NCBI RefSeq assembly: GCF_011045215.1
Contig: NZ_CP049201.1
From: Escherichia coli
GTDB lineage: Bacteria > Pseudomonadota > Gammaproteobacteria > Enterobacterales > Enterobacteriaceae
Strand: one strand, 5' to 3'
DNA length: 64,000 bases
A program made the position numbers and the translations under genes. Position 1 is the first letter of the stretch, and each line of letters begins with the position of its first letter. Below are positions 61,470 to 64,000 of this stretch, one piece after another. Below the pieces are notes generated by a model. It saw nothing but the letters and a program-made list of their open reading frames with translations, had not been told where the DNA came from and searched no databases.

Positions 61470-61625
61470 CCCGTGTGCAGGCAAATGTTCCTTGCAAAAT
61501 GGCATCTGAATCGATCGCAGTTTGGCATTCGAATCGATCATGATTTGGCATCCATCTCCGATCACAGTTTGGCATCACAATCGATCACGATTTGGCATAC
61601 TTCCGATCATTGATTGGAATTCGCC
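61470..61625. repeat. IS21-family terminal region with multiple direct repeats (putative transposase binding sites)
   Basis: Five copies of tttggcat-N8-10-gatc(a/g) immediately upstream of istA. Confidence 0.7.
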
Positions 61626-61693
61626 AGTCACTCCGGGAATTAACTCTTTTCACCACAGTCTCCATTGCCGTGTTTAAACCAGTGGAGACGTCA

Positions 61694-63259
61694 ATGTCCA
61701 AAAAGAGAAAATCCAGGAGCACTATGGAAACTTGTTTTAAGATCCTTCAGCTCAAGTTCGATAAGAAGCTGACTAACCGTTGTATCGGACTGACGTTACA
61801 CATCAGCGCCTCAACCGTTTTTGAGGTTCTTGCCCGCTTCAAAGCCTCTTCTCTGTCATGGCCATTACCTGCTGATATATCCCATGACACGCTGGAGAAA
61901 CTCATTTTCCCGCCCAAAGACACCTCTGCGTCAGAGCTTGTTATGCCTGACATGCTGTACTTCGATACGGAAATGAGAAAACCTGGCGTGACGCGCCAAC
62001 TGTTGTGGATGGAATACAAGGCACAGGCGGGTGACAAAGCGATGGGATACTCACACTTCTGCCGTTGCTACCGGAAGTGGAAAAAAACGCGACGCCTCTC
62101 CATGCGACAGGAGCATCGTGCTGGCGAAAAGCTCTTTATCGACTTCTGTGGTCCTACGGTCCCTGTTATTAATCCGGACACCGGAGAGATACGCCGCGTG
62201 GCAATCTTCGTGGCTGTAATGGGGGCGTCCAACTATACCTATGTTGAAGCGTGCGAAGGTCAGGACATGATGTCATGGTTAAATGCCCACAGCCGTTGCC
62301 TGACCTTCCTGGGCGGCGTACCGAAGCTGCTCATCCCCGATAACCTCAGAAGCGCAGTGAAAAAAGCCGATCGCTATGAGCCTGTCATCAACGACAGTTA
62401 TCAGGCGCTGGCTGAGCACTATGGCACGGTTATTATCCCGGCCCGCCCGCGCAAACCTAAAGATAAACCAAAAGCAGAAAACGGCGTCCTCATCGTCGAG
62501 CGATGGCTTCTTGCCCGCATCCGTAATGAAACCTTCCACACGCTCAGGGCGCTGAATGCACGCCTTCGGGAGTTGCTGACGGACATGAATAACCGACCAA
62601 TGAAGGGATACGGTAATCAAACCCGCGCAGAACGCTTCCGCATGCTGGATGCACCAGCACTCTCTCCGCTGCCTCTGGAGCCTTATGAATACACGGAATA
62701 CAAAGCCGTGAAGGTTGGCCCTGACTACCACGTTGAATATGCCCGTCACTGGTACTCCGTTCCACACGAACTGGTCGGTCAGCGTCTGTCACTGAAGGTG
62801 GGGCAGTCGGTGGTACAGCTCTGGCACAAGGGGCAGTGTGTGGCGCAACATCCGCGCAGCACACATGAATATAAACACACAACCAATCCGCTTCACATGC
62901 CAGAACGCCACCGGCGGCATGGGACATGGACACCGGAACGCCTTATCGAGCAGGGAAACCGTACAGGTCCGTCCACAGGCCGGGTGGTTGAATCCATGCT
63001 GAAAGCCAAACCCCATCCGGAGCTGGCTTACCGTGCAGTCCTGGGTCTGCTGGCACTTCAGAAAAAATACGGCCCGGAACGGCTGGAAAAGGCCTGTTAC
63101 GTTGCCCTGCACTATAACGCCCCGGACAGACGCTTTATCGACAATCTGCTGCGTCATCATCGGGATAACGTTGAGCTTCCGTTATCCCGCCAGGGCGAAC
63201 AACATCCGGCATATGCTTCAGAGCATGAAAACCTGCGTGGTCCTGGCTACTACCACTGA
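61694..63259 (+). CDS. istA: IS21-family transposase IstA
   Basis: N-terminal HTH, DDE integrase core; start chosen at MSKKRKSRS (track ORF begins 61592). Confidence 0.85.
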   Translation: MSKKRKSRSTMETCFKILQLKFDKKLTNRCIGLTLHISASTVFEVLARFKASSLSWPLPADISHDTLEKLIFPPKDTSASELVMPDMLYFDTEMRKPGVTRQLLWMEYKAQAGDKAMGYSHFCRCYRKWKKTRRLSMRQEHRAGEKLFIDFCGPTVPVINPDTGEIRRVAIFVAVMGASNYTYVEACEGQDMMSWLNAHSRCLTFLGGVPKLLIPDNLRSAVKKADRYEPVINDSYQALAEHYGTVIIPARPRKPKDKPKAENGVLIVERWLLARIRNETFHTLRALNARLRELLTDMNNRPMKGYGNQTRAERFRMLDAPALSPLPLEPYEYTEYKAVKVGPDYHVEYARHWYSVPHELVGQRLSLKVGQSVVQLWHKGQCVAQHPRSTHEYKHTTNPLHMPERHRRHGTWTPERLIEQGNRTGPSTGRVVESMLKAKPHPELAYRAVLGLLALQKKYGPERLEKACYVALHYNAPDRRFIDNLLRHHRDNVELPLSRQGEQHPAYASEHENLRGPGYYH

Positions 63260-63275
63260 CAGAAGGAACAACCGT

Positions 63276-64000
63276 ATGAGTGATAATCTGTTAAACAAAC
63301 TGACCCAACTGAAACTCCCGGCGATGGCCGGGAGCCTGATACGGCAACGGGAAACGCCTCAGACTTACGACGAACTGTCGTTCGAGGAAAGGCTGACACT
63401 GCTGGTTGATGACGAGCTTCTGAGCAGAGAAAACAGTCGTGTGGCACGGTTGAGAAAAAATGCCTGCCTGAAATATCAGGCAACACCGGAAGGGCTGCGT
63501 TATCCGGCCTCAAGAGGTCTGCGGGCTGAACAGATGAGGGAACTGCTGAACGGCCACTACATAATCCACAGGAAAAACCTACTGATAACCGGTCCGACAG
63601 GATGCGGTAAGAGCTGGATAGCCAATGCGCTGGGCGAACAGGCATGTCGACAGAAATACAGCGTCCGGTACTGTAGAACCGGGCGATTACTGGAACAGTT
63701 GGCTCAGGGACGTGTTGATGGCAGTTGGCTGAAATATCTGAAACAGTTGCAAAAAATACAGGTTCTAATCCTGGACGATCTGGGGCTGGAACAGTTAAGT
63801 AACGCCCAGTGTAATGACCTTCTGGAGATCACAGAGGATCGTTACGGACAAAGCAGCACGATAGTGGTAAGCCAGTTCCCGGTAGATAAATGGCATGGTC
63901 TGATGGAGAACCCAACAACAGCAGATGCCATCCTGGACAGACTGGTACATAACTCACACAGAGTGGTCCTTCAGGGAGAGTCCCTGAGGAAAAATCCCCC
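63276..64000 (+). CDS. istB: IS21-family helper ATPase IstB (partial, runs off window end)
   Basis: ATG 63276 preceded by gaaggaaca; hand translation MSDNLLNKLTQLKLPAMAGSL... with Walker A GPTGCGKS and Walker B ILDDLG; no stop before position 64000, so absent from the ORF track. Confidence 0.85.
   Translation, partial: MSDNLLNKLTQLKLPAMAGSLIRQRETPQTYDELSFEERLTLLVDDELLSRENSRVARLRKNACLKYQATPEGLRYPASRGLRAEQMRELLNGHYIIHRKNLLITGPTGCGKSWIANALGEQACRQKYSVRYCRTGRLLEQLAQGRVDGSWLKYLKQLQKIQVLILDDLGLEQLSNAQCNDLLEITEDRYGQSSTIVVSQFPVDKWHGLMENPTTADAILDRLVHNSHRVVLQGESLRKNP

What the first reader, a model, noticed from the sequence alone, without database searches (positions are those of the whole stretch)
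61470..64000. IS21-family element inserted immediately after the small conjugation-module genes, where downstream transfer genes would be expected
The multi-repeat IS21-type terminus begins about 16 nt after the stop of the 60942-61454 membrane-protein gene, followed by istA and istB. In related ICEs this position is usually followed by further transfer genes, so the insertion may have split or deleted part of the transfer module and immobilised the island. IS21-family elements can also drive adjacent deletions.
Basis: inference. Interest (0 to 1): 0.5.

Follow-up and report, generated by a model that had tools for sequence, protein, structure and literature searches.

The report
ISSso4 insertion upstream of ICE traD
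A common, well-known E. coli/Shigella insertion sequence (ISSso4, IS21 family) has landed 14 codons into a small unnamed gene just upstream of the coupling-protein gene of a chromosomal conjugative element; this probably weakens the element's ability to transfer, and it is an ordinary event.

Summary
The IS is real, but its boundary and target were misread. It is ISSso4 (IS21 family), 100% identical over the visible 2,508 nt to a Shigella sonnei pINV copy. Its left end is at 61493 (TGCAAAATGGCAT...), not about 61470. Bases 61451-61492 are not spacer or IS terminus. They are the first 14 codons of a conserved 262-aa ICE gene, so the insertion is intragenic.

In all intact relatives examined that carry this gene, it overlaps the start of traD (T4SS coupling protein).

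The IS should end near 64130, outside the window. The right junction, target-site duplication and any adjacent deletion could not be checked, despite several attempts to recover the flanking DNA.

An independent short-read contig (Logan SRR11014969) carries the identical junction. None of 5,426 complete E. coli genomes does.

Likely consequence (inferred): loss of the 262-aa accessory protein and polar reduction of traD/TIGR03747 expression, giving impaired transfer.

This is a known IS in a known ICE family. Low interest.

The parts
61493..64000 (+). ISSso4 (IS21 family), cut by the window end; a full copy is 2,638 bp, so the right end is predicted at ~64130
   Evidence: 100.0% identity over 61493-64000 to S. 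sonnei pINV and E. coli copies annotated as ISSso4. Left end fixed by three independent flanks. Length taken from L003 positions 601-3238.
61493..61620 (+). Left terminal region: 5'-TG terminus plus six (A/T)TTGGCAT-type motifs, five of them as ~19-nt direct repeats spaced 22-24 nt (putative IstA binding sites)
   Evidence: the repeat finder family D2 at 61510-61620. The same architecture, with 3 repeats, is seen at the right end of full copies. The role as transposase binding sites is inferred from what is known of IS21.
61694..63259 (+). istA transposase. PGAP starts it at 61724 (511 aa). An in-frame ATG at 61694, just downstream of GGAGAC, would give 521 aa.
   Evidence: NF033546 IS21 family transposase, 287 bits against cut-off 160. 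Coordinates mapped from L003 832-2367.
63276..64000 (+). istB helper ATPase; 241 of 251 codons are visible (a full gene would end at 64031)
   Evidence: NF038214 IstB, 252 bits against cut-off 200. Mapped from L003 2384-3139.
61451..61492 (+). 5' stump (codons 1-14, MTVSLLARVQANVP) of the interrupted 262-aa ICE gene. It now reads into the IS and stops after 16 foreign codons at 61543.
   Evidence: Alignment to uninterrupted relatives. The full gene is seen in L015 11636-12424. It is present as 262 aa (261 aa in L016) upstream of traD in all but one of the intact relatives examined.
57080..61454 (+). Upstream part of the same tightly packed ICE gene string: PilL, 257-aa gene, TIGR03759, lytic transglycosylase, TIGR03765/DUF2859, Mrr_cat nuclease-like, 170-aa membrane protein. 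Most boundaries overlap by 4 nt.
   Evidence: ORF list, NCBIfam hits and relatives' annotation. A strong terminator-like hairpin at 56964-56985 lies just upstream of pilL.
38292..38340 (-). 49-nt 3' portion of tRNA-Phe (pheU) marking the ICE boundary; ICE DNA starts at 38341 and runs to the IS
   Evidence: ARAGORN finds no tRNA in the window. In ICE-free E. coli the same DNA continues into a complete annotated tRNA-Phe next to cadC.

Best explanation
Shown:
- A copy of the known insertion sequence ISSso4 (IS21 family; istA transposase plus istB helper ATPase) is inserted into an SPI-7/PFGI-1/ICEclc-type (MPF-G) integrative conjugative element.
- The ICE sits at the pheU tRNA-Phe site of an E. 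coli chromosome.
- The IS lies exactly between codons 14 and 15 of a conserved 262-aa gene of unknown function. It has the same orientation as the transfer genes.
- In uninterrupted relatives, the stop of that gene overlaps the start of traD.

Inferred:
- The event was an ordinary cut-and-paste IS21-type transposition. It should have left a 5-7 bp duplication of (TG)TTCCT at the unseen right end.
- It destroys the 262-aa protein.
- It places 2.6 kb of foreign DNA plus ~750 nt of now untranslated sequence between the upstream genes and traD/TIGR03747. Expression of those two genes should be reduced by polarity.
- Homologues of traD and TIGR03747 are essential for transfer in ICEclc, so conjugative transfer of this ICE copy should be impaired.
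For: IS identity:
- 100% identity over 2,508 nt to annotated ISSso4 copies.
- IstA and IstB score above the NCBIfam cut-offs.
- The terminal repeats are present.

Insertion point:
- IS copies diverge from the window left of 61493.
- ICE relatives match through 61492 and then continue GTCTGGGCACATGAAC.

Target gene and downstream order:
-. traD scores 1089 bits against TIGR03754, and TIGR03747 scores 303 bits.
- The 262-aa gene overlaps traD by 4 nt, and traD overlaps TIGR03747 by 8 nt.
- The 262-aa gene of the closest intact relative contains no sigma-70-like promoter.
- The last 340 nt of the IS contain no promoter-like or terminator-like site.

Junction is real:
- Logan contig SRR11014969_37 is 100% identical to window 54446-61518, including 26 nt of the IS.

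Simple insertion is the usual outcome:
- Five of six ISSso4-type copies examined have 5-7 bp TSDs and split a single gene or site.

Essentiality of downstream genes:
- Deleting iceD4 (traD) or orf68241 (TIGR03747) lowers ICEclc transfer more than 100-fold (PMC10018362).
Against: - The right end, TSD and downstream genes of this copy were not seen.
- The 262-aa gene is probably accessory. ICEclc has DUF2859 directly followed by traD. One E. coli ICE (L032) lacks the whole Mrr_cat/170-aa/262-aa trio yet keeps traD and the T4SS genes.
- istAB read in the same direction as traD, and no terminator was detected at the IS end. Read-through transcription could therefore still express traD.
- No expression or mating data exist.
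Confidence: 0.8

Rival explanations
1. IS-associated adjacent deletion or rearrangement. The ISSso4 right end is joined to unrelated DNA. The rest of the 262-aa gene, traD and some or all downstream transfer genes are missing, leaving an immobile ICE remnant.
For: One of six ISSso4-type copies examined (L025) has no TSD and unrelated genes on its two sides. Exact-protein look-ups with TraD and with the 262-aa remainder of the two closest relatives did not return any contig from the run that carries the junction. This is weak evidence, because these proteins are highly mosaic: 15 variants of the 231-aa C-terminal part among the 25 loci compared.
Against: Five of six copies are simple insertions with TSDs. 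The left junction is exactly at the IS terminus, as expected for either scenario. Nothing in the window points to a deletion.
Confidence: 0.15
2. Simple insertion that is functionally near-neutral. The 262-aa gene is dispensable, and traD/TIGR03747 are still expressed by read-through from the upstream operon or from istAB, so the ICE remains transferable.
For: The gene trio containing the target is absent from ICEclc and from E. coli ICE L032. The IS is co-oriented with the operon and shows no terminator-like site at its right end. With a 4- or 7-bp TSD, an ORF open for 31-32 codons with ATG starts in the IS end would fuse in frame to codon 15 and could restore translational coupling to traD.
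Against: A 2.6-kb insertion in a translationally coupled gene string is usually polar. With a 5-, 6- or 8-bp TSD the frame is closed by a stop codon 18-27 nt upstream of codon 15, and the first in-frame start is Met32. No promoter-like site lies upstream of traD.
Confidence: 0.25
3. One reading: the IS terminus starts at ~61470 in intergenic DNA, 16 nt after the upstream gene.
For: TGTG... at 61473 superficially resembles an IS21-type TG terminus. A few BLAST alignments to 93-96% relatives extend left to 61463-61480.
Against: Those extensions are chance similarities in unrelated flanks: DUF932, rhs and a permease gene. Bases 61451-61492 are present in every IS-free relative as the start of the 262-aa gene.
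Confidence: 0.01
4. Assembly artefact: the ICE-IS join is a mis-join at a repeat.
For: ISSso4 is multi-copy in many E. coli genomes, with up to 34 places per genome.
Against: A separate short-read assembly (Logan SRR11014969) contains the same junction on a unique 7-kb contig. The join falls exactly at the IS terminus. It is unknown whether that run is from the same isolate.
Confidence: 0.02

Closest known systems
ISSso4 (IS21 family; named from Shigella sonnei, as annotated by NCBI PGAP)
   Same: 100.0% nucleotide identity over all 2,508 visible bases to the S. sonnei pINV copy. Same istA/istB organisation with a 16-nt gap. Same TG left terminus and repeat array.
   Different: Nothing detectable. 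Only the location is particular: 0 of 5,426 complete E. coli genomes have this junction. The last ~130 bp lie outside the window.
IS21 (prototype, plasmid R68.45) and IS100 of Yersinia
   Same: Two-gene istA/istB layout, TG...CA ends, multiple terminal repeats, short variable TSDs. From general knowledge, family members are known to inactivate genes and to promote adjacent rearrangements.
   Different: A different element. No tandem (IS21)2-type junction is seen in the window.
SPI-7 / ICEEc2 / pKLC102-PAPI-1 / ICEclc family of MPF-G integrative conjugative elements
   Same: The window encodes an SPI-7-type DnaB (690 bits against cut-off 655), PFGI-1 ParB (TIGR03764), an STY4528-family protein, PFL_4669 (TIGR03761), topoisomerase III, SSB, PilL (TIGR03748), and TIGR03765. 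TIGR03759 is named from relatives' annotation. The ICE is integrated at the 3' end of a tRNA-Phe gene.
   Different: Compared with ICEclc, this enterobacterial lineage carries three extra genes (Mrr_cat nuclease-like, 170-aa membrane protein, 262-aa DGNHR protein) between DUF2859 and traD. In this copy the third of them is interrupted.

Membership tests
IS21 family | IstA DDE transposase | tested here: met
   NF033546, 287.4 bits against cut-off 160, residues 19-327
IS21 family | IstB AAA+ helper ATPase encoded immediately downstream on the same strand | tested here: met
   NF038214, 252.2 bits against cut-off 200. istB starts 16 nt after the istA stop. The last 10 codons are outside the window.
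IS21 family | 5'-TG...CA-3' termini with imperfect inverted repeats and multiple terminal direct repeats | tested here: met
   The left end (TG plus repeat array) is seen in the window. The right end (...GGAATACGCA, three repeats) is seen only in identical copies elsewhere.
IS21 family | Short target-site duplication (4-8 bp) flanking this copy | not testable with these tools
   The right end is predicted at ~64130, beyond the window. Other copies have TSDs of 5, 5, 6, 7 and 7 bp, and one has none.
ISSso4 | Near-identity to the named element | tested here: met
   99.9-100% identity over 2,508 nt to many copies that PGAP labels 'IS21-like element ISSso4 family'. The ISfinder reference itself was not available for direct comparison.
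MPF-G (PFGI-1/SPI-7/ICEclc-type) ICE | Family-specific marker proteins (TIGR037xx ICE set, SPI-7-type DnaB, PFGI-1 ParB) | tested here: met
   Hits above cut-off for TIGR03765, TIGR03748, TIGR03761, TIGR03764, NF040583 and NF040582
MPF-G (PFGI-1/SPI-7/ICEclc-type) ICE | Integration in the 3' end of a tRNA gene with a direct repeat | tested here: met
   A 49-nt 3' part of tRNA-Phe at 38292-38340 abuts ICE DNA. The other end is not in the window.
MPF-G (PFGI-1/SPI-7/ICEclc-type) ICE | Intact coupling protein, VirB4-type ATPase, relaxase and integrase in this copy (i.e. a functional ICE) | not testable with these tools
   All would lie beyond 64000. They are present in relatives.

The most novel reading that the evidence does not exclude
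The insertion acts as a switch rather than a knock-out. With a 7-bp (or 4-bp) target duplication, the ISSso4 right end supplies an open frame with ATG starts. This frame fuses in register to codon 15 of the 262-aa gene. The coupling-protein gene traD would then be translated and transcribed under read-through from istAB, which would tie ICE transfer competence to IS expression.
Probability: 0.05. Interest if true: 0.3.

Novelty: already known. Interest (0 to 1): 0.1.

Why it matters
It matters little beyond the annotation of this genome. The correct call is one ISSso4 copy, one pseudogene (a 14-codon stump of a conserved 262-aa ICE gene) and a transfer operon that is probably polar-blocked. 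This ICE copy should therefore be treated as possibly transfer-defective when inferring mobility of the pheU island.

IS hits are common in this ICE family. IS66- and IS3-type insertions were seen in relatives. The case illustrates routine decay or domestication of ICEs, not a new mechanism.

The one mildly useful by-product concerns the interrupted gene. It belongs to a widespread, completely unannotated family: 309 clusters at 50% identity, an invariant-like DGNHR motif, and a confident AlphaFold model with only weak ParB/sulfiredoxin-like similarity. In these enterobacterial ICEs it sits next to traD.

Tried and rejected
1. Recovering the right junction. All attempts failed.
- Exact look-up of the 30-aa junction ORF found nothing.
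- TraD of the two closest relatives returned only uninterrupted loci.
- The Met32-262 remainder of the target protein, in two variants, was not on record.
- A conserved downstream 121-aa protein is in 2,551 blocks, and only long complete genomes were read.
- Exact junction scans of genome contigs and metagenome contigs gave 0 hits.
- The downstream proteins are too mosaic to guess exactly: 15 variants of the 231-aa part among the 25 loci compared.

2. Idea that the IS has a longer left end or a sequence-specific target. Some BLAST hits extended to 61463-61480. Alignments show only chance similarity in unrelated flanks, so this was rejected.

3. Second IS copy or IS right end elsewhere in the window. 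None was found. The 511-aa ORF at 6205-7740 is ProP, not IstA.

4. Naming the 262-aa protein.
- No Pfam, NCBIfam, PADLOC or PDB sequence match.
- AFDB50 neighbours are nearly all 'uncharacterized'.

5. Rfam did not detect the 49-nt tRNA-Phe fragment. It was confirmed instead by comparison with ICE-free genomes.

Full report
**What is at 61470-64000**

Reading the sequence and ORFs shows a repeat-rich stretch followed by two co-oriented ORFs.
- The first ORF (61694 or 61724 to 63259) scores 287 bits against NCBIfam NF033546 'IS21 family transposase' (cut-off 160).
- The second (63276 to the window end) scores 252 bits against NF038214 'IS21-like helper ATPase IstB' (cut-off 200).
- Megablast of 61470-64000 finds the element in 1,715 of 5,426 complete E. 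coli genomes and in 411 plasmids.
- The best copies are 99.9-100% identical from query base 24 onward and are annotated 'IS21-like element ISSso4 family'.
- The Shigella sonnei pINV copy is 100.0% identical over all 2,508 visible bases.

The element is therefore a known IS, and its identity to other copies is consistent with recent arrival.

**Where the IS really begins**

Three copies in unrelated contexts (S. sonnei pINV, an E. coli chromosome next to tRNA genes, and the window) become identical exactly at TGCAAAATGGCAT. This is window position 61493. Four further copies agree.

From the other side, ICE relatives without the IS match the window through 61491/61492 and then continue differently.

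A few BLAST alignments to 93-96% relatives ran further left, to 61463-61480. Inspection shows only chance similarity in unrelated flanking genes.

The left end has the IS21-type architecture. It has a TG terminus and five in-register ~19-nt direct repeats at 61510-61620, spaced 22-24 nt, plus a terminal AATGGCAT copy.

Full copies are 2,638 bp and end ...GATCGAATAGAGCGGAATACGCA, with three repeats at that end. In window coordinates the IS would end at about 64130. Both the right end and the last 10 codons of istB lie outside the window.

**What it interrupted**

The 42 bases at 61451-61492 are the start of a gene. The ATG at 61451 forms an ATGA overlap with the stop of the 170-aa gene and is preceded by GGGAGG. 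Codons 1-14 read MTVSLLARVQANVP.

In uninterrupted relatives this ORF runs for 262 codons (261 in L016) and its stop overlaps the traD start by 4 nt. traD in turn overlaps the TIGR03747 gene by 8 nt.
- traD of the closest relative scores 1089 bits against TIGR03754.
- The next gene scores 303 bits against TIGR03747.
- Further downstream come RAQPRD, TIGR03758/45/50, PFL_4703, TIGR03749/52/51, a TraC-like ATPase and TraU.

The IS sits exactly between codons 14 and 15, in the same orientation as these genes. The stump now reads into the IS and stops after 16 foreign codons.

The insertion, however, is intragenic rather than in a spacer.

**The host element**

The window is E. coli chromosome (proP, crfC, cadCBA and others).
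- At 38292-38340 lies the 3' 49 nt of tRNA-Phe on the minus strand, followed by foreign DNA.
- In ICE-free genomes the same sequence continues into the complete pheU next to cadC.
- From 38341 the window encodes ParA, an SPI-7-type DnaB, PFGI-1 ParB, an STY4528-family protein, PFL_4669, topoisomerase III, SSB, PilL, TIGR03759, a lytic transglycosylase and TIGR03765 (TIGR03759 and the transglycosylase are named from relatives' annotation).

This is an MPF-G ICE of the SPI-7/ICEEc2/PAPI-1/ICEclc kind.

Related ICEs occur in 74 of 5,426 complete E. coli genomes, always on chromosomes. They are highly mosaic.

**Is the junction real, and how common is it?**

A Logan short-read contig (SRR11014969_37, 7,073 bp) is 100% identical to window 54446-61518. 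It ends 26 nt inside the IS, as expected for an assembly break at a repeat.

No complete E. coli genome spans the junction (0 of 5,426). Exact scans of the genome and metagenome collections also found nothing.

All other carriers of the neighbouring genes that were inspected are uninterrupted.

**The interrupted protein**

- It has no Pfam, NCBIfam, PADLOC or PDB sequence match.
- It belongs to a broad family: 309 clusters at 50% identity with E<=0.001.
- The family has a nearly invariant DGNHR...A motif.
- The AlphaFold model is confident (pLDDT 91.5, pTM 0.86).
- AFDB50 neighbours are almost all 'uncharacterized'.

A ParB/Srx-like N-terminal domain is a reasonable guess and no more than that.

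The gene is probably accessory to conjugation.
- In ICEclc the DUF2859 gene is followed directly by the coupling-protein gene (PMC10018362).
- One E. coli ICE (L032) lacks the Mrr_cat/170-aa/262-aa trio altogether.

**Likely mechanism and consequence**

Shown: insertion of an ISSso4 copy, with an intact istA and an istB identical to reference copies as far as the window runs, into codon 14/15 of the gene upstream of traD.

Inferred:
- The event was ordinary IS21-type transposition. Five of six copies examined carry 5-7 bp TSDs (CTCAGGC, AATAA, GTATCC, GTAAT, GTTACCC), and one has none.
- The predicted right junction is ...ACGCA + (TG)TTCCT + GTCTGGGCACATGAAC.
- The genes from pilL to TIGR03747 are packed with overlapping stops and starts.
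- No promoter-like site lies in the 262-aa gene or in the IS right end.
- The insertion should therefore be polar on traD and TIGR03747.
- Homologues of both are required for ICEclc transfer, with a more than 100-fold drop on deletion.

Points that weaken the inference:
- The IS is co-oriented with the operon and has no detectable terminator, so read-through is possible.
- With a 4- or 7-bp TSD, an IS-borne ORF with ATG starts would fuse in frame to codon 15.
- A second ICE copy in the genome could complement in trans. Several relatives have two copies.

**What could not be done**

The right end, the TSD and the downstream genes of this copy were not recovered, despite eight targeted attempts. 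Whether there was an adjacent deletion therefore stays open. From the one-in-six rate among the copies examined, I put it at about 15%.

**Verdict**

This is a known IS in a known ICE family, and IS insertion into an ICE is an ordinary event. The 'immobilised island' reading is plausible but untested. Interest is low.

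Noticed in passing
window 38292-38340 (and 37936-38095): The ICE boundary is a 49-nt 3' fragment of tRNA-Phe (pheU) on the minus strand, and ICE DNA starts at 38341. Just chromosome-side of it lies the integrase pseudogene remnant that the ICE-free E. coli genome examined (L045) also carries between cadC and pheU.
   Followed up: yes
L015:11636-12424 (intact homologue of the gene cut at window 61451-61492): The 262-aa target belongs to a large, wholly unannotated family: 309 clusters at 50% identity and a conserved DGNHR motif. The AlphaFold model is confident (pLDDT 91.5), with only weak ParB/sulfiredoxin-like structural similarity. In enterobacterial MPF-G ICEs the gene sits directly upstream of traD.
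   Followed up: partly
L032 (CP099205.1) 387-3062, compared with window 59816-61492: The three genes between DUF2859/TIGR03765 and traD (Mrr_cat nuclease-like, 170-aa membrane protein, 262-aa protein) are variably present. L032 lacks all three, L034 lacks the 170-aa gene and L033 has a 94-aa gene instead. They look like an accessory cassette inside the transfer operon. The Mrr_cat protein weakly matches type IV restriction/PADLOC models (E ~1e-5).
   Followed up: partly
window 54446 (start of Logan contig L019): The independent short-read contig that carries the junction begins at 54446, in the intergenic region between topB and the STY4534-family gene. Imperfect direct repeats lie nearby (54320-54410). 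The assembly break might reflect a second related ICE or a repeat in that genome. It was not resolved.
   Followed up: no
L026 6221-8637; L032 4413-5626: Other members of this ICE family carry IS66-type and IS3-type insertions in the variable region between TIGR03747 and the RAQPRD gene. IS hits in these ICEs are commonplace.
   Followed up: no
window 55962-56894 and 56964-56985: An Rpn-family (PD-(D/E)XK 'Transposase_31') gene sits inside the ICE between ssb and pilL and varies among relatives (298, 310 or 314 aa). It is followed by a strong terminator-like hairpin (8-bp stem plus a T-run) that probably marks the start of the pilL-to-TIGR03747 transcription unit.
   Followed up: no
window 61694 vs 61724: istA has an in-frame ATG 30 nt upstream of the PGAP-annotated start, lying just downstream of GGAGAC. 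The true IstA may be 521 aa rather than 511 aa.
   Followed up: no
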